In this document: in pieces, positions 2,352-14,180 of the stretch
Layout of the letters: each line of letters opens with the position of its first letter
Numbering within the stretch: the stretch's first letter is position 1
Assembly (NCBI GenBank): GCA_041675505.1
Contig: JBAYTR010000010.1
Coordinates: 67,895-131,894, forward strand
DNA from: Bacteroidia bacterium
GTDB taxonomy: Bacteria > Bacteroidota > Bacteroidia > UKL13-3
Reading direction: 5' to 3'
Length of the DNA: 64,000 nucleotides
Program-made: the position numbers and the translations under genes
Notes under the pieces: model-generated
What the model was told of the DNA's origin: nothing
What the model saw: the letters and a program-made list of their open reading frames with translations, nothing else
Databases searched by the model: none

Positions 2352-5294
2352 TTAGTCTTCGCAGTGGTAGTTGCGAGGCGGGCGCGAGCGACCTTCGCGG
2401 GCGGGTTCTCCGGCTGCCTGTGCTTCGAGCATTTTTTTAAACAGCCAGTTGCGTAACTCTATGTTTTGTTGGTAGAGTTTCAGGTCTTCTTCTGCATCAA
2501 AATACCGTTTGCCGTCTATCCAGGTTTTTTCTACTTTAGCGTAAATACTCAGGGGGTCGTTGCTCCACAATACCACGTCAGCATCTTTACCTACTTTAAT
2601 ACTCCCTACGCGGTTATCTACGTGCAGCATTTTAGCCGGGTTGAGTGTAACCATTTTCCAGGCTTCTTCTCTGCTCATGTTGCAGTAGCGGATACTCTTG
2701 GCCGCCTCCTGATTAAGTCTGCGACCCATTTCGGCATCATCGCTGTTAATGGCTGTGGTTACTCCGGCTTTGGTAAGTAAGCACGCATTCTGCGGAATGG
2801 CATCAATTACTTCGTATTTGTAGGCCCACCAATCACTAAAGGTGCTGGCCGAGGCTCCGTGTTTTTTCATTTCATCGGCTACTTTGTAACCCTCCAGAAT
2901 GTGTGTGAACGTATTGACCTTAAACCCGAGTGAATCGGCCACGCGCATCAGCATGGAAATTTCAGATTGCACATACGAGTGGCAGGTGATGAATCTTTTT
3001 TTGTTGAGAATTTCATTCAGTGTTTCCATTTCCAAATCGGTACGGAAAGGTGTTTTGTTTTTAACAGCGGCTGATTTGTCGAGCGCATATTGTTTGGCGC
3101 GTGTAAAATCATTCACCATCACCTGCTCTACGCCCATGCGGGTTTGCGGGAACCTGAATGTAGGATCGTTCCAACCTCCGCGTTTTACATTTTCACCTAA
3201 TGCGAATTTGATAAAGCCATCAGCTCCTTCAAATTTCATTTGCTCGGGCAAGGCACCCCAACGCAGTTTAATGAGTTGAGATTGTCCGCCAATGGGGTTG
3301 CAGGAACCGTGCAGCAATTGCGCACCCGTTACCCCACCGGCCAGCTGACGGTAGATGTTGATGTCTTCATTGTCGACCACATCACCTATGCGCACTTCGG
3401 CTGTGTTGCTGTGGGTACATTCATTCACTCCGTTATCAATGGCAATGTGTGAATGTTCGTCAATTATACCGTTGGCCAAATGTTTATTGGTTCCGTCAAG
3501 AGTGGTGTAATTGCTCTTGCCGAAAATGCCGGCAGCATTCAGCTTTTTACCTACCGCAGCAATTTTTCCGTCTTTGATGGCCACATCGGTTTGTTCCAGA
3601 ATACCCTCCACTTCATTGGTCCACACGGTTGTGTTTTGTATGAGTACGTTGTCGTAATTCGGAAGGGTAGTTCTGCCGTAATCACCAAACGGGTAGCTCA
3701 CGCGGAATACGGAATCAACTTTATTTTCTTTGACTTTCTTTTTATCCTCGGGCGCAGCTTTTTTTGTTCCGTTCACTTGTTGCGCCAGGTAAACCAAAGC
3801 AATTTCTTTGGCTTCGGGCAAGGCGGCATCGGTAAGTTCTTTTATCCATCCGGTAACCGACAAGGCGTTTTTCGAACACTGGCAAATGGCAGCAAAACCT
3901 TTGCTTCCCTGCACATATTCCAAAGTGCCTTTGCAACTGTCGTTGCTCAGTTTCAGTTCTACGCTGTTGCCTTTAACCGTAAAAGTTCCGTTGTTACTAA
4001 GGGCAAAAGTTCCCTCCAGCATTTTTTTGTTTTTACCGGGAAGAACGTGCTGCTCACCTTTAATCCAGTGCTCGGTAATTTCAAAATCTTCTTCACCCAA
4101 AGGTGTGGTGGCGATAAAAAAGTTGGCCAGTTTTCCTGCGGCAATGCTGCCGGTTATATCTTCTATTTTGAGTAGGCGTGCCGGTTCAGTACACAAGGCT
4201 TTCACCAGGTCGGTTGCATTCAGGCCGCCTGATTGTACCTTGGCTAAGTTTTTCCAGAAAGTTTCTTTATCCAATCCTTCGGCAGTGAAGGCAAAGGGCA
4301 CGTTGTTTTGTTTGAGTATGGAGGCGTTTTTAGGTGCCATGTACCAATGCAGCAAATCAGCGGTGTTGATGAACTCGGCCATCTCAGCACTTTGTATGTT
4401 GTAGGTTTTCGGAAGTTGTAAAGGCACAATAAATGAGGCTCCGGTTTGTTTCAGTTCAGCGGCCCATTGGTACTCCGTACCGTTGCCTTTTACAATCCAG
4501 TTTTTGTTAAACTCTTTGGCAATTTTTAATGCACGCAAAGCTGATTGTTTGCTTTCCACTTCAAATATCACGGGTAAATTCTGCAGCTGATTAAAACGCT
4601 CCAGGGTGTAGTTGTACTCCAGTTTGTTTCCGCCCGCAGCATACCATTGCGCATCTAAATGTGTTTGACGCAACAAGGCGATTGAACCCATCAATGAAGA
4701 AGGATATTGATTGGGTGAGGTACCCTTATCAAAAGAATAATGCAAGGCCGATTGTTTGCGCAAAACAAGTTCGTTATCGGGTTTATTACCGGGTAACACC
4801 AACGTTGATGCACCGCGCACAATGCCGTCACGCACAAAGGAAGATACACAGCCGTAACCCATTTCGAGCAGTTGTTTCCATTGCTTATCATCGGGTTCAA
4901 AATGTTCAAAGGCATCTACATCGCTGCGGATAGCTTCGTTCCAACCCAGTGCGGCTTTTTTCGGAGCATTGTTTTTATCTGTTTTTTGGTTGATGCCGTA
5001 GGTGCTGAACGGGTCAATAAAAGAAGGATAAATCCACTGGCCTTTTACATCGGTTACTACGGCATCCGTTGGAATAACAACTCCTTTGCCCGCTGCCACA
5101 ATTTTACCGCCACGGATAACCAGTGTATAATCCAATCCTGTAGTTTGTTCATTGAGCTGTATGTTGGCATGGGTAAACGCAAAGCACGTAAGCTTAGGAT
5201 CTTTAACAGTTAACTGTGGAAAGGAGGGTTGAGCAAAAACGAAGACAGGGAAAAGTGCGGTAAACACTACCGCCAGCAGTTTATTTTTTATCAT
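2352..5294 (-). CDS. two-domain amidohydrolase family protein (secreted); probable start at the internal Met giving MIKNKLLAVVF...
   Basis: 992-aa ORF with a signal peptide, HSHIAIDNG metal-binding motif, and amidohydrolase-like segments in both halves. I moved the start to 5294 to remove overlap with the upstream gene. Confidence 0.65.
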   Translation of the reverse strand: MIKNKLLAVVFTALFPVFVFAQPSFPQLTVKDPKLTCFAFTHANIQLNEQTTGLDYTLVIRGGKIVAAGKGVVIPTDAVVTDVKGQWIYPSFIDPFSTYGINQKTDKNNAPKKAALGWNEAIRSDVDAFEHFEPDDKQWKQLLEMGYGCVSSFVRDGIVRGASTLVLPGNKPDNELVLRKQSALHYSFDKGTSPNQYPSSLMGSIALLRQTHLDAQWYAAGGNKLEYNYTLERFNQLQNLPVIFEVESKQSALRALKIAKEFNKNWIVKGNGTEYQWAAELKQTGASFIVPLQLPKTYNIQSAEMAEFINTADLLHWYMAPKNASILKQNNVPFAFTAEGLDKETFWKNLAKVQSGGLNATDLVKALCTEPARLLKIEDITGSIAAGKLANFFIATTPLGEEDFEITEHWIKGEQHVLPGKNKKMLEGTFALSNNGTFTVKGNSVELKLSNDSCKGTLEYVQGSKGFAAICQCSKNALSVTGWIKELTDAALPEAKEIALVYLAQQVNGTKKAAPEDKKKVKENKVDSVFRVSYPFGDYGRTTLPNYDNVLIQNTTVWTNEVEGILEQTDVAIKDGKIAAVGKKLNAAGIFGKSNYTTLDGTNKHLANGIIDEHSHIAIDNGVNECTHSNTAEVRIGDVVDNEDINIYRQLAGGVTGAQLLHGSCNPIGGQSQLIKLRWGALPEQMKFEGADGFIKFALGENVKRGGWNDPTFRFPQTRMGVEQVMVNDFTRAKQYALDKSAAVKNKTPFRTDLEMETLNEILNKKRFITCHSYVQSEISMLMRVADSLGFKVNTFTHILEGYKVADEMKKHGASASTFSDWWAYKYEVIDAIPQNACLLTKAGVTTAINSDDAEMGRRLNQEAAKSIRYCNMSREEAWKMVTLNPAKMLHVDNRVGSIKVGKDADVVLWSNDPLSIYAKVEKTWIDGKRYFDAEEDLKLYQQNIELRNWLFKKMLEAQAAGEPAREGRSRPPRNYHCED

Positions 5295-6651
5295 GTTGTT
5301 CTCTCCACAATTCATTGAATGATTTGGCACTTAGTTCAGGAAACACCCTGCGCTCTCCCCAGCTGCTTTTAAACAACGATTTAATGAGGAAACCTTTAAT
5401 GCTAGGGGCGCGGTTCATTTTTTTGCGATCGAGCATGGCTTTTTTCCAGGCTATCCACATCAGCTTTTCGCTGGTTTTACCATGACCCTCATCTACAAAA
5501 TCTTTTCTGTTGGCCAGCAGTGTTTGGTGTATGGGAATGTTTACCGGGCACACATCGGTACAGGCCCCGCAAAGGGTGGAGGCGTGGCTCAGGTGCTTGA
5601 ATTCTTTGGCACCAAATTGCAACGGACTCACTACTGAGCCGATGGGTCCGATGTTGGTGCTTTCATATCCATGTCCGCCAATGGTTTTAAAAATGGGGCA
5701 CACATTGGAGCAGGCACCGCAACGAATGCATTTTAGCGCTGCCCGTTGTTCCTGTTTTTCGAGTACGTTGGTGCGGCCGTTGTCCAGCAGTATCACATAC
5801 ATTTCAGCAGGTCCGTCTCCTTCGTCCTGAAAACGCGGACCCATAAAAAGAGAGTTGTAAGTCGTGAGGTTTTGTCCGGTACCGTAAGTGGCCAGCATGG
5901 GCAGCAACACTTCCAGATCACCCATTCCCGGAATTATTTTTTCAATACCCGCCAGTACAATGTGTACCGCAGGAGCCGAAGTTCCTACACGCACATTGCC
6001 CTCGTTTTCGGTAATTACCACCGCACCGGTTTCGGCCACCAGAAAGTTGGCCCCTGTAATGCTTACCTGGGCATTGCGTAAATGTGTTTTTATATTGCCG
6101 CAGCCTTTTGCGGTAAGTTGCTCGGCTGTGGTCTCGTGGCTGTTGGGCAGATTAAATAAAGCACCTACCTCTTCCAATGATTTGTGCATGGCCGGTGTTA
6201 CCGGATGAAAAGGAGCTTCGTTGGCCAGTTGAACAATGTATTCGCCCAAATCAGTTTCGTGAACGGCTACCTGTTTTTGTGTAAAGTGTTTTTGCAAACC
6301 AATTTCTTGTGCCGTGGTTGATTTGCTTATGACAATTTCACTGGCTGCATGTTGGGTAACAATGTTTTCAATTTCGCTGAGTGCGGCAACCGCATCGGGA
6401 GCCCAAAGAACCTTCCCGCCCCTTTTGGTAAAGGCGTTTTCAAACTCCAGCAAAAACTTATCTAGGCTTTCAATGGCTCTCCACCGGGAAAAAGAGGCGC
6501 GCTCTTTGGCCAGTTCCAGCTGTTCAAACTGTGTGATTCCCTTGTGGTGTTGTACCCGATAATTGGCCAAAGCAGCATCTATCTTCTGGCGCCTTTCCGC
6601 ATCAAAAGCTGTTTTTTCAGCTAACCGAAGAAAACTTTCCAGATCTGCCAT
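5281..6651 (-). CDS. LutB/LldF-like iron-sulfur protein (LUD domain plus two 4Fe-4S ferredoxin motifs)
   Basis: Two Cys clusters: CIRCGACSNVCP and CGACTDVCP. The overall layout matches lactate-utilisation protein B-type proteins. Confidence 0.7.
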   Translation of the reverse strand: MADLESFLRLAEKTAFDAERRQKIDAALANYRVQHHKGITQFEQLELAKERASFSRWRAIESLDKFLLEFENAFTKRGGKVLWAPDAVAALSEIENIVTQHAASEIVISKSTTAQEIGLQKHFTQKQVAVHETDLGEYIVQLANEAPFHPVTPAMHKSLEEVGALFNLPNSHETTAEQLTAKGCGNIKTHLRNAQVSITGANFLVAETGAVVITENEGNVRVGTSAPAVHIVLAGIEKIIPGMGDLEVLLPMLATYGTGQNLTTYNSLFMGPRFQDEGDGPAEMYVILLDNGRTNVLEKQEQRAALKCIRCGACSNVCPIFKTIGGHGYESTNIGPIGSVVSPLQFGAKEFKHLSHASTLCGACTDVCPVNIPIHQTLLANRKDFVDEGHGKTSEKLMWIAWKKAMLDRKKMNRAPSIKGFLIKSLFKSSWGERRVFPELSAKSFNELWREQHDKK

Positions 6652-10865: not shown

Positions 10866-12704
10866 ATGTGTGGAATTGTAGCTTACATAGGTAAGCAGGA
10901 AGCTTACCCTATTCTTATTAAAGGACTTAAACGCCTGGAGTACCGCGGTTATGATAGTGCCGGAGTAGCACTGCTTAATGACGGGATAACGGTATATAAA
11001 AAAGCAGGGAAGGTTTCTGACCTGGAGCAGTCCGTAGGTGGTCAGGACACTACCTCTCACGTGGGCATAGGCCACACACGCTGGGCCACACACGGAGAGC
11101 CTAACGACCGCAACGCACATCCGCACCTTTCTCAGGATGGTGACTTGGCCATTATTCACAACGGTATAATCGAGAATTATGCGCCCTTAAAAGAAGAACT
11201 CATTAAGCGTGGCCACACGTTTAAAAGTGATACCGATACGGAAGTACTGGTGCACCTGATAGAAGACGTAAAGAAAAAAATGGAGGTTTCTTTACAAGAA
11301 GCCGTTCGTATTGCGCTCTCTGAAGTAGTGGGTGCATACGCCATTGTGGTGTTGTCTAAAAACGACAACAACATGCTCATCGGGGCACGCAAAGGCAGCC
11401 CCATGGTGGTGGGTATTGGCAAAGACGGGGAATACTTTATCGCCTCCGATGCTTCACCCATTATTGAGTACACTAAAAACGTTTATTACTTAGACGACAA
11501 CGAAATCGTTTACATCGAAAACGGGGAAATGACCGTAAAAACGATTGACAACGTGGTGCGCACACCATACATCCAGGAACTGGAAATGAACTTGGAGGCT
11601 TTGGAAAAAGGCGGATACGAGCACTTTATGCTCAAAGAAATTTACGAACAACCCCGTTCCATCATTGACAACTTTCGCGGACGCATTCGTTTAAACAACG
11701 CACAAATTGTGATGGCCGGAGTTGACCAGTTTGAACACAAGTTTAAAAACCTGCCCCGCATTCTTATTGTGGGTTGCGGCACCTCATGGCATGCCGGCCT
11801 GGTGGGTGAATACCTTTTTGAAGAGTTTGCCCGCATACCTGTGGAAGTGGAATACGCCTCAGAGTTTCGTTACCGCAATCCGGTGGTAAATGAAAATGAT
11901 TTTGTAATTGCTATTTCACAATCAGGCGAAACCGCAGATACGTTAGCGGCCATTCAAATGGCCAAAGAAAAAGGAGCTACTATTTTCGGGGTATGTAATG
12001 TGGTGGGCTCATCTATTCCAAGGGCTACACATGCGGGAGCGTACACACATGCCGGTCCGGAGATTGGTGTGGCTTCTACCAAAGCCTTTACGGCTCAGGT
12101 AACCGTTTTAACACTGATGGCTTTAAGCATAGCACAAAAACGCGGTACCATTACCCAAAGCCGAATGCGCGATGTACTTACTGAGTTGGAATCCATTCCA
12201 TCTAAGATTGAAAAAGTTCTGCAACTGAATGACTACATCAAAACCATAGCTGAGCAATACAAGGATGCGCGCAACTTCCTTTACCTCGGTCGCGGATACA
12301 ATTTCCCGGTGGCTTTGGAAGGTGCGTTAAAACTGAAAGAAATCTCTTACATACATGCTGAGGGTTATCCTGCTGCTGAAATGAAGCACGGCCCTATTGC
12401 GCTGATAGATGAAGAAATGCCGGTGGTTGTAGTAGCTACCAAAGACAGCATTTATGAAAAAGTAATCAGCAATATACAGGAAGTAAAAGCGCGCAAAGGA
12501 AAAGTAATTGCCGTGGTAACAGAGGGTGATGATAAGGTAAAAGGCATGGCCGATTACGTAATTGAAATACCTGAAGTGGAAGAATCGCTGGCCCCGCTGG
12601 TTACTACCATTCCGTTGCAACTGCTTTCATACCACATTGCCGTAATGCGTGGCTGTAATGTTGATCAACCCCGTAACCTGGCCAAGTCGGTAACGGTGGA
12701 ATAA
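10866..12704 (+). CDS. glmS: glutamine--fructose-6-phosphate aminotransferase
   Basis: MCGIVAYIG N-terminal nucleophile, two SIS domains, C-terminal ...KSVTVE. 612 aa. Confidence 0.95.
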   Translation: MCGIVAYIGKQEAYPILIKGLKRLEYRGYDSAGVALLNDGITVYKKAGKVSDLEQSVGGQDTTSHVGIGHTRWATHGEPNDRNAHPHLSQDGDLAIIHNGIIENYAPLKEELIKRGHTFKSDTDTEVLVHLIEDVKKKMEVSLQEAVRIALSEVVGAYAIVVLSKNDNNMLIGARKGSPMVVGIGKDGEYFIASDASPIIEYTKNVYYLDDNEIVYIENGEMTVKTIDNVVRTPYIQELEMNLEALEKGGYEHFMLKEIYEQPRSIIDNFRGRIRLNNAQIVMAGVDQFEHKFKNLPRILIVGCGTSWHAGLVGEYLFEEFARIPVEVEYASEFRYRNPVVNENDFVIAISQSGETADTLAAIQMAKEKGATIFGVCNVVGSSIPRATHAGAYTHAGPEIGVASTKAFTAQVTVLTLMALSIAQKRGTITQSRMRDVLTELESIPSKIEKVLQLNDYIKTIAEQYKDARNFLYLGRGYNFPVALEGALKLKEISYIHAEGYPAAEMKHGPIALIDEEMPVVVVATKDSIYEKVISNIQEVKARKGKVIAVVTEGDDKVKGMADYVIEIPEVEESLAPLVTTIPLQLLSYHIAVMRGCNVDQPRNLAKSVTVE

Positions 12705-12739
12705 GGTTGGTACCGTTGTGTTTTAAACGGACTACGAAA

Positions 12740-12764
12740 CAGCAGCTACAGTTGTTTAACCAAC
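12740..12764. repeat. 25-bp direct repeat, copy 1 (CAGCAGCTAcaGTTGTTTAACCAAC)
   Basis: Matches 13199-13223 at 23 of 25 positions. Copy 1 is intergenic, downstream of glmS. Confidence 0.6.
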
Positions 12765-12905
12765 TTTTATGTGAATACTCTGTAAACGTCTTTCCTGTGA
12801 GTAATCACAATCAGCCTTATGGTATTGGATGAAATTTTTCAAATATAGTCTTGTCCTTAACATTATTTAAAGACCTTTCAAATGATTTATCAAATTCGAC
12901 AATCA

Positions 12906-13100
12906 TTAAGATTTTAATTTTTTGAGGATGGTGGATTTAGGAACAGTTTTTCCGGTCTTAACTTTATCCATTAAGGTTCCCATCATCAAATCCTCAAATT
13001 GCTCATCCTTTACACTCAGAACATCCGCCCCAAGTTTTTTGGCAAGTTCAGACAGGATTTTATTGCTCTGTTTGTCGGCCCTTATAAGAATTGCACTCAT
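12906..13100 (-). CDS. small hypothetical protein (64 aa) inside the segment bracketed by the 25-bp direct repeats
   Basis: The only ORF in a 500-bp gap. Charged, Lys-rich, no TM segment. No recognised family. Confidence 0.3.
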   Translation of the reverse strand: MSAILIRADKQSNKILSELAKKLGADVLSVKDEQFEDLMMGTLMDKVKTGKTVPKSTILKKLKS

Positions 13101-13198
13101 GATGTAAAGATATTAAAAATGATTATCAGCGAAAGACTTCAAACATTGTTAGCTAACGGTAGAGGAGAAAAACTCATCCATACTTTTTATTTCCGCTC

Positions 13199-13223
13199 CA
13201 GCAGCTAAGGTTGTTTAACCAAC
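13199..13223. repeat. 25-bp direct repeat, copy 2 (CAGCAGCTAagGTTGTTTAACCAAC), spanning the stop codon and last codons of the yjbR-like gene
   Basis: See copy 1. The YjbR-like C-terminus ...ALVKQP-stop is encoded here on the minus strand. Confidence 0.6.
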
Positions 13224-13546
13224 GCAGCCAGTTGAGCAGGTGCCACTTCGCAATAAGCTGAGGTGAGTGCAGCTGTAAACAGACGCTTGCTTACCTTACT
13301 TAGTTCCACCATGGTCCACCCTTGTTTGCCCCACTTATTGTTTACAGGATACACGATGCTTTTGTCAGCCAGTGAAAACAGGTCCTGATTTATTTCAGAT
13401 AATTTAAGGCAGGCCCTGTTGTTTTTTTCGTCACAGGTGGCAAATATTTTTCCCTTTACCCGAAAGGAAATTTTTTCAAAGTGGGCCGCTTCTGTAGCCT
13501 CAGGAAAAGAAAGTGCAATAGTTCGGAAGGCTGCTAAACTCACCAC
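13205..13546 (-). CDS. MmcQ/YjbR family DNA-binding protein
   Basis: 113 aa; ...FPEATEAAHFEKISFRVKGKIFATC... is typical of the YjbR/MmcQ fold family. Confidence 0.65.
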   Translation of the reverse strand: MVSLAAFRTIALSFPEATEAAHFEKISFRVKGKIFATCDEKNNRACLKLSEINQDLFSLADKSIVYPVNNKWGKQGWTMVELSKVSKRLFTAALTSAYCEVAPAQLAALVKQP

Positions 13547-13568: not shown

Positions 13569-14180
13569 TTAAAAATTACCGTACGAGAGGAAGAACGAAC
13601 CGTTGGTAACTGTTTTCGACTGGGTACCTGTTTCGTTGTACAACTTACATGTGAAGGTGCCTTTTACATCCACATAGGTATCGCCAAAGATGCTGAACTG
13701 CTGTGTGCTGGTAATGTTAAACGTTGCCCCGCTTTGTGTACCGTTAATGCTGCTCCACACCTGTCCGGTGGCATCTACATGCAAAATTTCTACACCATCG
13801 GTAGTAGGGGTGGAATACATGTAATTTCCGGGAGCAAAATAGGCTACAAAATCAGCATCATCAGGGTAGGCACCCTGAAAGCTCATTTCACCCTTGTATA
13901 TGCTCACACCTCCTACGGTATTGTCAGAAAAAATATTGGAATAATAGTAAGCGGTAGAAAACTCAGGCAACGGGCGGGTTTCTTTACTGGAGCCGGCTGC
14001 TTGTTCAAAACCGTTTTTTCCGTCAGTGTAGGTGAGGGAACTGCCATCTACGGTAAGGGCAACATTATATCGGTTGGGAGTAGGAGTTGGGGTGGGTGTA
14101 ACGTTGTTATCATCATCGTCTTTTTTACAACCGGTAAACGCCAAAGCCAAAAGAGCTGCAGCAAAGAATAAATTTTTCAT
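13569..14180 (-). CDS. hypothetical lipoprotein
   Basis: MKNLFFAAALLALAFTGCKK lipobox followed by a TPTPTPTP linker. No recognised family. Confidence 0.6.
   Translation of the reverse strand: MKNLFFAAALLALAFTGCKKDDDDNNVTPTPTPTPNRYNVALTVDGSSLTYTDGKNGFEQAAGSSKETRPLPEFSTAYYYSNIFSDNTVGGVSIYKGEMSFQGAYPDDADFVAYFAPGNYMYSTPTTDGVEILHVDATGQVWSSINGTQSGATFNITSTQQFSIFGDTYVDVKGTFTCKLYNETGTQSKTVTNGSFFLSYGNF

What the first reader, a model, noticed from the sequence alone, without database searches (positions are those of the whole stretch)
12740..13223. 25-bp direct repeat duplicating the 3' end of the yjbR-like gene and bracketing a 434-bp insert that carries a 64-aa ORF
CAGCAGCTAnnGTTGTTTAACCAAC occurs twice (23/25 identical), 459 bp apart. 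A chance 14-mer identity in 64 kb has an expectation far below 0.001. One copy covers the last codons and stop of the YjbR/MmcQ-like gene. The other lies in the glmS-yjbR gap. That is the footprint left when an element integrates into the 3' end of a gene and regenerates it. Here, though, the intervening segment is tiny (434 bp) and holds only a small charged ORF. It may be a decayed integrative element, a MITE-like insertion, or a local duplication.
Basis: seen in the sequence. Interest (0 to 1): 0.55.

Follow-up and report, generated by a model that had tools for sequence, protein, structure and literature searches.

The report
Decayed toxin-antitoxin cassette with duplicated gene end
The repeat-bracketed segment is a small foreign toxin-antitoxin gene pair, lodged behind the yjbR gene together with a second copy of that gene's last 25 bases, whose toxin has since been destroyed while its antitoxin survives; this is an ordinary kind of selfish cassette, though its repeat structure hints at how such cassettes move without any transposase.

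Summary
CAGCAGCTAnnGTTGTTTAACCAAC occurs at 12740-12764 and 13199-13223 (23/25 identical, 459 bp apart), where none is expected by chance. The segment between the copies is a type II toxin-antitoxin cassette on the minus strand, not a MITE or a local duplication. It has an intact 64-aa antitoxin from an unclassified family. Its RelE/ParE-superfamily toxin is broken by a 130-bp internal deletion. A relative (L007) carries the intact 89-aa toxin at the same site, and another (L008) has a frameshifted one. L001 has no cassette. L047, L013 and L014 carry a sulfotransferase gene there instead. The same gene pair occurs in at least 10 unrelated neighbourhoods in other Bacteroidota. The antitoxin is intact in 17 of 17 copies, and the toxin has been broken five independent times. 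The distal repeat starts 2 nt after the toxin stop. The proximal repeat plus about 20 nt beyond it is native yjbR flank. A second locus (L019) shows the same architecture at a different gene. [quoted passage not shown] That step is inferred, not shown. No recombinase, terminal inverted repeats, attC-like fold or shared att core was found. Interest is moderate to low.

The parts
10866..12704 (+). glmS (612 aa), convergent with yjbR; right-hand anchor of the variable interval
   Evidence: ORF; GATase/SIS Pfam families on the orthologue in L007
12710..12724 (-). Probable remnant of the 5' codons of a sulfotransferase gene that fills this interval in relatives (inferred)
   Evidence: AAAACACAACGGTAC against L047 AAAATACAGCGGTAC and L013 AAAATACAACGGTAT, at the same place next to the glmS stop; the L013 gene is PF03567 at 82 bits
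12740..12764 (-). Distal repeat copy: a displaced second copy of the yjbR terminus (reads LVKQL* + CTGCTG), starting 2 nt after the toxin stop
   Evidence: within the L013 interval it maps only onto the yjbR end; 13-14 nt of it are deleted in L007/L008
12765..13177 (-). Cassette-specific (foreign) DNA, 413 bp; about 545 bp before the toxin deletion
   Evidence: Absent from L001, L047, L013, L014 and L002; present in L007/L008; GC of the 434-bp repeat-bracketed segment is 33.6% against 42.2% for the window
12767..12906 (-). Toxin pseudogene (RelE/ParE superfamily). ATG at 12904-12906 overlaps the antitoxin stop. A 130-bp internal deletion has its junction at 12840/12841, and the original stop is at 12767-12769. 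Only a 29-aa ORF (12817-12906) remains.
   Evidence: Alignment with the intact L007 gene (columns 459-588); tblastn maps toxin residues 1-28 to 12906-12823 and 67-88 to 12838-12773; the L007 toxin is PF05016 at 30.9 bits against a cutoff of 23, TIGR02385 at 27.6 against 27.9, and PDB 3bpq_B RelE3 at E=1.5e-11
12906..13100 (-). Intact 64-aa antitoxin gene of an unclassified family; now an orphan antitoxin
   Evidence: 62 homologous clusters at 60-100% identity, none with a Pfam domain; always immediately upstream of, and overlapping, a ParE_toxin gene; dN/dS about 0.13 against L007; no Pfam, NCBIfam or PDB match
13101..13177 (-). Cassette upstream region (presumed promoter/operator); the last ~35-60 nt before the ATG are conserved among cassettes in unrelated loci
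   Evidence: for example ...TTTACATCATG is shared with L011 and L020
13178..13198 (-). Native yjbR 3' spacer (GAGCGGAAATAAAAAGTATGG). It lies inside the repeat-bracketed segment but is not insert.
   Evidence: GAAATAAAAA(A)GTA.GG follows yjbR in the cassette-free alleles L047, L013 and L002, where it precedes the sulfotransferase stop codon
13199..13223 (-). Proximal repeat copy: the functional end of yjbR (last 5 codons LVKQP, TAG stop, 6 nt)
   Evidence: AAACAACCTTAGCTGCTG is identical to the single-copy yjbR end of L047
13205..13546 (-). yjbR/mmcQ-family gene (113 aa), the target gene
   Evidence: PF04237 at 45.6 bits against a cutoff of 30.1; orthologues

Best explanation
Shown: the segment is a chromosomal type II toxin-antitoxin cassette (promoter region, 64-aa antitoxin, 89-aa RelE/ParE-superfamily toxin in its intact form). 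It lies between the convergent genes yjbR and glmS. In this genome a 130-bp deletion has destroyed the toxin gene and left an orphan antitoxin under purifying selection. Related cassettes sit in many unrelated loci and repeatedly lose the toxin first. Inferred: the ancestral interval was yjbR - ~20-nt spacer - sulfotransferase - glmS, as in L047 and L013. The cassette entered at about the sulfotransferase stop codon without any transposase or integrase of its own. Its arrival duplicated the target from GTTGG (16 nt before the yjbR stop) through the spacer, about 45 nt in all. That is an 'insertion with long target duplication', as described for restriction-modification units. A later deletion removed the distal spacer copy and most of the sulfotransferase gene, leaving the 25-bp distal copy fused to TTTCGTAGTCC... 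The cassette-free allele L001 has this same fusion junction. The likeliest reading is that L001 is a secondary loss by deletion between the two repeat copies, and not a naive empty site. The surviving antitoxin may protect against related incoming toxins (anti-addiction); this is speculative.
For: Cassette identity: the antitoxin stop overlaps the toxin start (TAATG). The window's toxin fragments align to the intact L007 gene, with a clean 130-bp gap. That gene is PF05016 above its cutoff and is related to RelE3, 3bpq.

Foreignness and mobility: GC is 33.6% against 42-46% in the surroundings. The same pair occurs in at least 10 unrelated neighbourhoods. The interval has four occupancy states among relatives whose yjbR is 85-95% identical at nucleotide level: an intact or decayed cassette (window, L007, L008), the sulfotransferase gene (L047, L013, L014), a sulfotransferase remnant plus unrelated genes (L002), and nothing (L001).

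Toxin-first decay: the antitoxin is intact in 17 of 17 copies, and the toxin has been broken 5 independent times.

The repeat is target sequence: cassettes elsewhere lack it. The proximal copy is identical to the single-copy yjbR end in L047. Within the L013 interval the distal copy maps only onto the yjbR end.

Recurrence: in L019 the last 10 codons and stop of a different gene (LEKLLWPLKK*) recur 1 nt after the toxin stop as LEWLLLPLKR* (25/32 nt).

No mobility machinery: the intact L007 unit holds only the two genes. There are no terminal inverted repeats, no significant fold at the junctions and no Rfam hit.

Precedent: restriction-modification units inserted with long, variable target duplications and no mobility genes, including a 46-bp repeat overlapping 15 bp of a gene's 3' end, with amplification through the repeats (PMC2853133). 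L037 shows a perfect 701-bp tandem amplification of [repeat + cassette].

Event order: the spacer after the proximal copy is native. A sulfotransferase 5' remnant lies next to glmS. The junction between the yjbR end and TTT(T)CGTARTCC is shared by the window, L001, L007 and L008.
Against: - The duplication as it stands is 25 bp, not the ~45 bp the model requires; the missing part is explained by a postulated later deletion.
- No allele with cassette, full duplication and intact sulfotransferase was found.
- L001's repeat unit (CGT TAA TTGCAG) differs from both window copies at 4-5 of 12 positions, although the flanks are 95-97% identical. That fits awkwardly with a simple recent deletion between window-like repeats.
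- Only 2 of about 11 independent cassette contexts (this locus and L019) show a gene-end duplication abutting the toxin stop.
- Four contexts show no flanking repeat, and the others have unrelated kinds: a dispersed 122-nt structured element and a 30-nt GC-rich element.
- Cassette-bearing alleles are polyphyletic relative to the flanks. Antitoxin dS (0.20, 7 of ~40 sites) is lower than flank dS (0.44-0.83). Allelic exchange has therefore blurred the history.
- The enzymology of long target duplication is unknown even for restriction-modification units.
Confidence: 0.6

Rival explanations
1. Recombinant allele. The two repeat copies come from two different alleles of the locus, not from a duplication at insertion. 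DNA carrying yjbR + spacer + cassette recombined homologously within yjbR on one side. On the other side it joined illegitimately just upstream of the resident yjbR terminus of an L001-like allele that had already lost the sulfotransferase gene (homology-facilitated illegitimate recombination).
For: The proximal copy with its spacer is of the L047/L013 type, while the distal copy with its flank is of the L001 type. The locus is clearly shuffled between lineages: cassette-bearing and sulfotransferase-bearing alleles are both polyphyletic. The copies differ in the last codon and keep an in-frame stop, as different alleles do (P, L, R and A occur as the last codon). In L019 the distal copy also reads as an in-frame variant gene end.
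Against: It still needs an earlier insertion of the cassette next to the spacer, so it adds steps. It would have to produce an illegitimate join 1-2 nt after the toxin stop independently at two different genes (window and L019). The yjbR 3' region next to the cassette is no more similar between the window and L007 than the rest of the gene (about 84%). The L019 copy differences fall 1/3/4 on codon positions 1/2/3, which gives no clear coding signature.
Confidence: 0.2
2. attL/attR of a site-specific integrative element. A tyrosine- or serine-recombinase element with a 25-bp attP identical to the yjbR end integrated there, and everything except its terminal toxin-antitoxin stabilisation module was later deleted. 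Alternatively, the cassette was mobilised in trans by such a recombinase.
For: A 23/25 direct repeat covers a gene's 3' end and regenerates it, which is the classic att footprint. Toxin-antitoxin modules are common at the ends of integrated islands (general knowledge). A cassette-free allele exists.
Against: There is no recombinase in any allele; the intact L007 form is about 575 bp with two genes only. About 20 nt inside the proximal copy is native flank, so the repeat's edge is not the boundary of the foreign DNA. Independent insertions of the same cassette family share no core: L019 duplicates an unrelated sequence and four contexts have no repeat. In two independent loci the toxin stop lies 1-2 nt from the repeat, so the cassette end is itself the element end and not an interior module.
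Confidence: 0.12
3. Integron-type gene cassette or MITE-like non-autonomous transposon. The repeat or the insert's ends would be recombination sites (attC-like hairpins or terminal inverted repeats) used by an enzyme encoded elsewhere.
For: Toxin-antitoxin pairs are typical cargo of chromosomal integrons (general knowledge). The repeat contains GTTAAAC, which fits the 7-nt GTTRRRY core consensus (direct reading). In L011 an 18-nt inverted repeat bounds the cassette, and CCACTGGC follows the toxin stop in L009, L011, L023 and L031. In L037-L040 cassettes are separated by a 122-nt hairpin-rich repeat in array-like fashion.
Against: In the window the junction folds are no better than shuffles (z from -0.2 to -1.2). 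The insert has no terminal inverted repeat: the best alignment is not terminal, and 4.6% of shuffles score as well. There is no second copy in 64 kb. The distal copy is collinear with a real yjbR terminus, not with a cassette-borne site. The 122-nt repeats of L037-L040 have no RYYYAAC/GTTRRRY pair (direct reading). There is no Rfam hit.
Confidence: 0.04

Closest known systems
Insertion with long target duplication of restriction-modification gene complexes (Nobusato et al. 2000; Furuta et al. 2010, PMC2853133)
   Same: A small self-stabilising (addiction-type) gene unit with no mobility gene is flanked by direct repeats that correspond to a single-copy sequence in uninserted relatives. The repeat can overlap the 3' end of a neighbouring gene (46 bp overlapping 15 bp in H. 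influenzae). Repeat length varies between events. The repeats allow tandem amplification (seen here in L037) and loss.
   Different: The cargo is a toxin-antitoxin pair, not a restriction-modification system. The surviving repeat is 25 bp, below their 30-bp working threshold, and a longer original duplication is only inferred. The hosts are uncultured Bacteroidia whose competence is unknown. The mechanism is unknown in both cases.
Chromosomal RelE/ParE-superfamily type II toxin-antitoxin modules (e.g. RelBE; solved RelE3, PDB 3bpq)
   Same: The antitoxin gene comes first and its stop overlaps the toxin start. The toxin is about 89 aa and matches PF05016, nearly matches TIGR02385, and matches RelE3. 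Distribution is patchy and horizontally acquired. The toxin decays first.
   Different: The antitoxin belongs to no Pfam, NCBIfam or PDB family; a ribbon-helix-helix-like fold is only hinted at (Foldseek E>2). In the window the toxin is a pseudogene, so there is no working module here.
ParE/ParD-like module of Microcystis aeruginosa PCC 7806 'fenced' by two 152-bp direct repeats (Klemencic et al. 2021, PMC7935541)
   Same: A ParE-superfamily toxin-antitoxin pair sits directly downstream of a host gene and is flanked by direct repeats. This resembles L037-L040 (122-nt structured repeats) and L026/L027 (30-nt repeat).
   Different: There the repeats are long, identical, contain internal inverted repeats and lie 120-147 bp from the genes. 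In the window the repeat is a 25-bp copy of a coding terminus that abuts the toxin stop.
Genomic islands and prophages integrated into gene or tRNA 3' ends (att-site duplication)
   Same: A direct repeat covers and regenerates the 3' end of the target gene, and a cassette-free allele exists in a relative.
   Different: There is no integrase, no conserved att core across insertions, and the unit is only about 0.55 kb. The inner edge of the proximal repeat is not the boundary of the foreign DNA.

Membership tests
Type II toxin-antitoxin module, RelE/ParE superfamily | Toxin homologous to RelE/ParE | tested here: met
   The orthologous intact gene in L007 scores PF05016 30.9 bits (cutoff 23) over the full profile, TIGR02385 27.6 bits (cutoff 27.9), and 3bpq_B RelE3 E=1.5e-11 for the L011 copy. 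The window keeps only residues 1-28 and 67-88.
Type II toxin-antitoxin module, RelE/ParE superfamily | Two small co-directional genes, antitoxin upstream, overlapping stop/start, conserved as a pair | tested here: met
   TAATG overlap at 12904-12908; the pair is conserved in 17 copies across about 11 contexts.
Type II toxin-antitoxin module, RelE/ParE superfamily | Intact, expressible toxin in this genome | tested here: not met
   A 130-bp internal deletion causes a frameshift and leaves a 29-aa ORF. The window holds a decayed module with an orphan antitoxin.
Type II toxin-antitoxin module, RelE/ParE superfamily | Antitoxin protein neutralises the toxin and autoregulates | not testable with these tools
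   Only gene order, co-conservation and dN/dS of about 0.13 bear on this. There is no family match. The AF2 model has pLDDT 71.6 and no significant fold match.
Insertion with long target duplication (restriction-modification-type mobility) | Flanking direct repeats correspond to one single-copy sequence in an uninserted relative | tested here: met
   The yjbR terminus is single-copy in L047, L013, L014, L002 and L001.
Insertion with long target duplication (restriction-modification-type mobility) | No transposase or integrase in or next to the inserted unit | tested here: met
   L007's unit holds two genes only, and its neighbours are yjbR and glmS. ORFs around the window's site show no recombinase.
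Insertion with long target duplication (restriction-modification-type mobility) | Repeat longer than about 30 bp (working threshold of Furuta et al.) and immediately adjacent to the foreign DNA on both sides | tested here: inconclusive
   The extant repeat is 25 bp. The distal copy abuts the cassette (2 nt), but about 20 nt of native spacer separate the proximal copy from the foreign DNA. This fits an original ~45-nt duplication whose distal part was deleted, which is an inference.
Insertion with long target duplication (restriction-modification-type mobility) | Repeat sequence unique in the genome | tested here: inconclusive
   There are only two copies in the 64-kb window. The rest of the genome was not available.
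Site-specific integrative element (att sites) | Element encodes, or lies beside, its recombinase | tested here: not met
Site-specific integrative element (att sites) | The same att core at independent insertions of the same element family | tested here: not met
   L019 duplicates an unrelated gene end. L009, L011, L023 and L034 have no flanking repeat. L020, L026 and L037-L040 have unrelated repeats.
Integron gene cassette | attC site: an imperfect hairpin with paired R''/R' and L''/L' boxes at the cassette's 3' end | tested here: not met
   Folds of both strands of 12700-12775 and of the empty site are not better than shuffles. GTTAAAC fits GTTRRRY, but there is no partner box.
Integron gene cassette | Integron integrase and a cassette array nearby | not tested
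   Only ORFs between about 9.7 and 17.5 kb of the window were inspected. The interval holds a single cassette.
MITE | Terminal inverted repeats, multiple genomic copies, non-coding | tested here: not met
   There is no terminal inverted repeat, no second copy in the window, and the insert carries two genes.

The most novel reading that the evidence does not exclude
This RelE-type cassette family moves as a bare ~0.55-kb unit with no transposase or integrase. It lands within a few bases of a host gene's stop codon and creates a 25-45-nt duplication of the gene's terminus, seen at two unrelated genes (yjbR here, a DUF3820/QSregVF_b gene in L019). That would be the same unexplained 'long target duplication' route reported for restriction-modification units, and would suggest a general enzyme-independent or host-repair-dependent insertion pathway for addiction modules. 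The repeats would then drive both amplification (L037) and clean loss (L001).
Probability: 0.25. Interest if true: 0.55.

Novelty: new member of a known kind. Interest (0 to 1): 0.33.

Why it matters
How chromosomal toxin-antitoxin cassettes move between unrelated loci without any mobility gene is still poorly understood. This locus gives a compact natural series of alleles for the same 0.5-kb unit: sulfotransferase-bearing, cassette intact, toxin frameshifted, toxin deleted, and cassette lost. A second, independent insertion shows the same gene-end duplication. If the duplication really forms at insertion, the 'long target duplication' phenomenon extends from restriction-modification systems to toxin-antitoxin systems, and there is a concrete pair of junctions to test experimentally. 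The series also documents toxin-first decay that leaves conserved orphan antitoxins (five independent cases), which bears on the anti-addiction hypothesis. For genome annotation, the practical result is that the '64-aa hypothetical protein' is an antitoxin of a family not yet in Pfam or NCBIfam. Otherwise the feature is an ordinary decayed selfish cassette.

Tried and rejected
- Pfam and NCBIfam on the 64-aa ORF and the toxin fragments gave nothing. The toxin was identified only through the intact orthologue.
- The antitoxin profile found nothing in PDB sequences, viral contigs or plasmids. The AF2 model is mediocre (pLDDT 71.6), and Foldseek found nothing significant, so ribbon-helix-helix antitoxins as top nominal hits are only a hint.
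- The attC/structured-site idea was rejected for the window: junction folds are not significant and Rfam is empty.
- The MITE idea was rejected: there are no terminal inverted repeats and no extra copies.
- I considered that the distal repeat might be the cassette's own 3' end motif, because L009, L011, L023 and L031 share CCACTGGC after the toxin stop and L011 has an 18-nt bounding inverted repeat. Only TGG..TTAA(A)C is shared with the window, and the distal copy is collinear with a true yjbR terminus over 25 nt plus the L001-type flank. I treated the resemblance as unproven.
- I tried to obtain an empty-site allele for the L019 insertion through the closest homologue of its target gene (P0063, L041). 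That genome has a different context on both sides, so the test was uninformative.
- dS comparison of cassette and flanks was suggestive (antitoxin 0.20 against 0.44-0.83), but it rests on about 40 synonymous sites and the toxin fragment gives 0.53. It does not decide between vertical and horizontal history.
- A weak tblastn hit of the toxin at window 5248-5469 lies inside large unrelated genes and is noise.
- The flanking repeats in L020, L026/L027 and L037-L040 are dispersed or structured elements of their own kinds. I did not count them as target duplications.
Full report
**1. The observation.** CAGCAGCTACAGTTGTTTAACCAAC (12740-12764) and CAGCAGCTAAGGTTGTTTAACCAAC (13199-13223) are present as described. 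They are 23/25 identical, start 459 bp apart, and enclose 434 bp. Allowing 3 mismatches, the pattern has exactly these two matches in 64 kb and none in 100 dinucleotide-preserving shuffles. The relevant strand is the minus strand. There the proximal copy reads TTG GTT AAA CAA CCT TAG CTGCTG, which is the last five codons, the stop and six further bases of a 113-aa gene (13205-13546). That gene is a YjbR-family member (PF04237, 45.6 bits). The distal copy reads TTG GTT AAA CAA CTG TAG CTGCTG and lies 36 nt from the stop of the convergent glmS gene (10866-12704).

**2. What lies between the copies.** The 64-aa ORF (12906-13100, minus strand) ends in TAATG, and that ATG opens a 29-aa ORF, MIVEFDKSFERSLNNVKDKTIFEKFHPIP. 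Neither ORF hits Pfam or NCBIfam. The 64-aa protein has 62 homologous clusters (60-100% identity, all 61-90 aa, none with a Pfam domain) from environmental Bacteroidota. Wherever context could be fetched, the gene is followed by an overlapping 89-aa gene of the ParE_toxin family.

L007 is a relative whose antitoxin is 95% identical. In L007 the same yjbR-glmS interval holds the 64-aa gene plus an intact 89-aa gene. That gene matches PF05016 over the whole profile (30.9 bits, cutoff 23) and TIGR02385 RelE/StbE just under its cutoff (27.6 against 27.9). The L011 copy matches the solved RelE3 toxin 3bpq_B (E=1.5e-11). Aligned to L007, the window's toxin gene has a clean 130-bp internal deletion (alignment A1 columns 459-588; junction at window 12840/12841). 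tblastn places toxin residues 1-28 at 12906-12823 and residues 67-88 at 12838-12773, and the original stop codon is at 12767-12769.

The insert is therefore a type II toxin-antitoxin cassette with a dead toxin and an intact antitoxin. Its GC content is 33.6%, against 42.2% for the window and 45-46% for the flanking genes.

**3. The cassette family.** The pair occurs in at least ten unrelated neighbourhoods:
- next to a peptidase in a Saprospiraceae MAG (L009);
- after a giant PKD protein and beside an IS91-like element (L011);
- after a DUF3820/QSregVF_b gene (L019);
- between a diacylglycerol-kinase-like gene and sdpI (L020);
- near an MNT/HepT pair (L023);
- after an SprB-like gene (L026);
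- after a HAD hydrolase (L037-L039);
- in further contexts.

Homology between cassettes from different contexts stops at, or a few tens of nt after, the toxin stop and about 35-75 nt upstream of the antitoxin ATG. The antitoxin ORF is intact in all 17 copies examined. The toxin has been inactivated five independent times: the window (130-bp deletion), L008 (1-nt deletion in an A-run, 46 aa), L020 (nonsense at codon 8), L030 (frameshift, 72 aa, while its sister copies L026, L027 and L029 are intact) and L031 (frameshift, 38 aa). Between the window and L007, the antitoxin has dN/dS of about 0.13.

The antitoxin has no relative in PDB sequences, viral contigs or plasmids. An AlphaFold model (pLDDT 71.6) shows an extended N-terminus and three helices. 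Its best, non-significant Foldseek hits are ribbon-helix-helix antitoxins, which is a hint only.

**4. The locus in relatives.** Nucleotide identity of yjbR to the window is 95% for L001, 93% for L047, 91% for L002, 88% for L013, 87% for L014 and 85-86% for L007/L008. The interval between yjbR and glmS has four states:
- (a) Cassette present: the window (decayed), L007 (intact) and L008 (frameshifted).
- (b) A 211-aa Sulfotransfer_2 gene (PF03567, 82 bits) that starts 5 nt after the glmS stop and ends about 20 nt from the yjbR stop: L047, L013 and L014.
- (c) A 3' remnant of that gene followed by unrelated genes: L002.
- (d) Nothing: in L001 the yjbR end GTTGGTTAAACAACGTTAATTGCAG runs straight into TTTTCGTAATCCGTTTAAAACACAACGGTACC and then glmS.

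States (a) and (b) are each polyphyletic with respect to the flanking genes; for example, the lipoprotein gene of L014 is closer to L007/L008 than to the window. Alleles of this interval have therefore been exchanged or lost repeatedly. Synonymous divergence between the window and L007 is 0.20 for the antitoxin (7 of ~40 sites) and 0.53 for the toxin C-fragment, against 0.44 (glmS), 0.67 (yjbR) and 0.83 (lipoprotein). The cassette is old and perhaps somewhat younger than the flanks, but the numbers are too small to decide.

**5. Anatomy of the junctions.** Four points matter.
- The repeat is target sequence, not cassette sequence. Cassettes elsewhere lack it. All cassette-free relatives have it once, as the yjbR terminus. 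Within the L013 interval, the window's distal segment maps only onto the yjbR end.
- The distal copy starts 2 nt after the toxin stop codon.
- The proximal copy is not the edge of the foreign DNA. The next ~20 nt (GAGCGGAAATAAAAAGTATGG, 13178-13198) match the spacer that follows yjbR in L047 (GAAATAAAAAAGTAAGG), L013 and L002, where it precedes the sulfotransferase stop codon. L047's yjbR end AAACAACCTTAGCTGCTG is identical to the window's proximal copy. Foreign DNA is therefore 12765-13177.
- Beyond the distal copy, the window, L007, L008 and L001 share the flank (T)TTCGTARTCCGTTTAAAACACA. Its glmS-proximal part (AAAACACAACGGTAC, 12710-12724) matches the 5' codons of the sulfotransferase gene (L047 AAAATACAGCGGTAC). 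L007 and L008 have each lost 13-14 nt of the distal copy.

**6. Most likely history and mechanism (inferred).** The ancestral state was yjbR - spacer - sulfotransferase - glmS. The cassette entered at about the sulfotransferase stop codon, together with a duplication of the target from GTTGG (16 nt before the yjbR stop) through the spacer, about 45 nt. A later deletion removed the distal spacer copy and the body of the sulfotransferase gene, creating the junction CTGCTG|TTTCGTA. L001 shares that junction and is best read as a secondary loss of the cassette by deletion between the two copies, so it is not a naive empty site. In the window's lineage the toxin then suffered its 130-bp deletion.

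This sequence of events explains the native spacer, the shared junction and the sulfotransferase remnant. It remains a model:
- No allele with the full duplication was found.
- L001's repeat unit differs from both window copies at 4-5 of 12 positions, despite flanks that are 95-97% identical.

**7. Recurrence elsewhere.** In L019 the cassette follows a DUF3820/QSregVF_b gene. That gene's last 10 codons and stop (TTGGAAAAGTTGTTGTGGCCGTTGAAGAAATAA, LEKLLWPLKK*) recur 1 nt after the toxin stop as TTGGAATGGTTGTTATTGCCATTAAAGAGATAG (LEWLLLPLKR*). The match is 25/32, about 1% of shuffles do as well, and both copies sit at special positions. This is the same architecture at an unrelated gene with an unrelated repeat sequence. 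An attempt to obtain an uninserted allele for L019 failed, because the closest homologue lies in a different context.

Other contexts differ:
- L009, L011, L023 and L034 have no flanking repeat above the shuffle null.
- L011 has an 18-nt inverted repeat bounding the cassette, and a CCACTGGC motif after the toxin stop is shared with L009, L023 and L031.
- L026 and L027 have a perfect 30-nt GC-rich repeat at -283/+99, and two otherwise identical contigs become unrelated 5 nt after the distal copy.
- In L037-L040 a ~122-nt hairpin-rich element separates cassettes and other small ORFs. L037 is a perfect 701-bp tandem duplication of [element + cassette].

I do not pool these with the gene-end duplications.

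**8. Comparison with known systems.** The closest described phenomenon is 'insertion with long target duplication' of restriction-modification units. These are small addiction-type units without mobility genes, flanked by long and variable duplications of single-copy target. One example is a 46-bp repeat overlapping 15 bp of a gene's 3' end in H. influenzae. A proposed life cycle involves amplification and release through the repeats (PMC2853133). A ParE/ParD-like pair fenced by 152-bp direct repeats has been noted in Microcystis (PMC7935541).

Several points count against an att-site reading:
- There is no recombinase in any allele.
- No core is shared across insertions.
- Native spacer lies inside the proximal copy.

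Against an integron cassette: the junction folds are not better than shuffles (z from -0.2 to -1.2), and there is no partner box for the GTTAAAC heptamer. Against a MITE: there are no terminal inverted repeats and no extra copy, and the insert carries coding genes. A homology-facilitated illegitimate recombination between an L047-type cassette-bearing allele and an L001-type allele cannot be excluded, and it is the main rival.

**9. Verdict.** It is wrong on the MITE and local-duplication alternatives, and only loosely right on 'integrative element'. The feature is a decayed RelE/ParE-type toxin-antitoxin cassette with an orphan antitoxin from a family not yet in the curated libraries. This is a new member of a known kind. 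The modest extra interest lies in the recurrent gene-end duplication, which would extend a poorly understood, transposase-free insertion mode from restriction-modification systems to toxin-antitoxin systems.

The cassette's identity is about 95% certain. The insertion-with-duplication mechanism is about 50% certain. Overall confidence in the combined statement is 0.6.

Noticed in passing
L037:569-2093; L038:740-2092; L039:1288-2198; L040:1316-2040: A ~122-nt hairpin-rich repeat (outer stem AAACCTTCCA/TGGAAGGTTT, three inner hairpins, then GTAATTC heptamer repeats) separates toxin-antitoxin cassettes and other small ORFs in an array-like layout after a HAD-hydrolase gene. L037 is a perfect 701-bp tandem duplication of [repeat + cassette]. 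It is not a canonical attC and has no Rfam match.
   Followed up: partly
L026:1218-1247 and 2063-2092 (same in L027-L030): A perfect 30-nt GC-rich direct repeat (GCCGACCCGAACGTAGTGAGGGGCACGCCC) flanks the cassette region. L026 and L027 are identical up to 5 nt past the distal copy and unrelated beyond it, so the repeat marks a rearrangement breakpoint. The adjacent GC-rich tract holds four GCGAAGC motifs. A remnant of a second antitoxin-stop/toxin-start junction lies at L026:1293-1318.
   Followed up: partly
L020:3025-3165 and 2407-2425/3085-3103/3191-3209: Downstream of a nonsense-inactivated cassette lies a 21-nt inverted repeat (90% complementary) enclosing ~100 nt. The motif CCGACCAACGG occurs three times in both orientations. 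There is no Rfam match and its nature is unknown.
   Followed up: no
L011:2938-2955 and 3466-3483; also just after the toxin stop in L009, L023, L031: In L011 an 18-nt inverted repeat (TAAGTTAACGCCAATGGG / CCCACTGGCGTTAACATA) bounds the cassette exactly. The motif CCACTGGC follows the toxin stop in four unrelated contexts, and a CCAAY motif lies 45-75 nt upstream of the antitoxin ATG in most copies. These may be cassette-end signals or an operator/terminator pair.
   Followed up: partly
window 12705-13204 and the orthologous interval in L001, L002, L007, L008, L013, L014, L047: The yjbR-glmS interval is a polymorphic hotspot: a sulfotransferase gene, a toxin-antitoxin cassette, unrelated genes, or nothing. 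The distribution does not follow the phylogeny of the flanking genes.
   Followed up: yes
window 13205-13210 and orthologues: The last codon of yjbR varies between close alleles (Pro, Leu, Arg, Ala), as does its stop (TAG/TAA) and the CTG/CAG triplets after it, while the preceding 14 nt GTTGGTTAAACAAC are invariant.
   Followed up: no
L047:1-612 and 808-1419: Two consecutive 203-aa genes lie upstream of yjbR in L047, where the window has one 203-aa lipoprotein gene (13569-14180). This may be a tandem gene duplication in that relative.
   Followed up: no
window 12906-13100 (protein family): The 64/65-aa antitoxin family (62 clusters, Bacteroidia/Saprospiraceae metagenomes) has no Pfam, NCBIfam or PDB relative and is annotated everywhere as a hypothetical protein. 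Invariant positions include D9, L19-A20, L23-G24, D32, Q34, G41 and K48-T49.
   Followed up: partly
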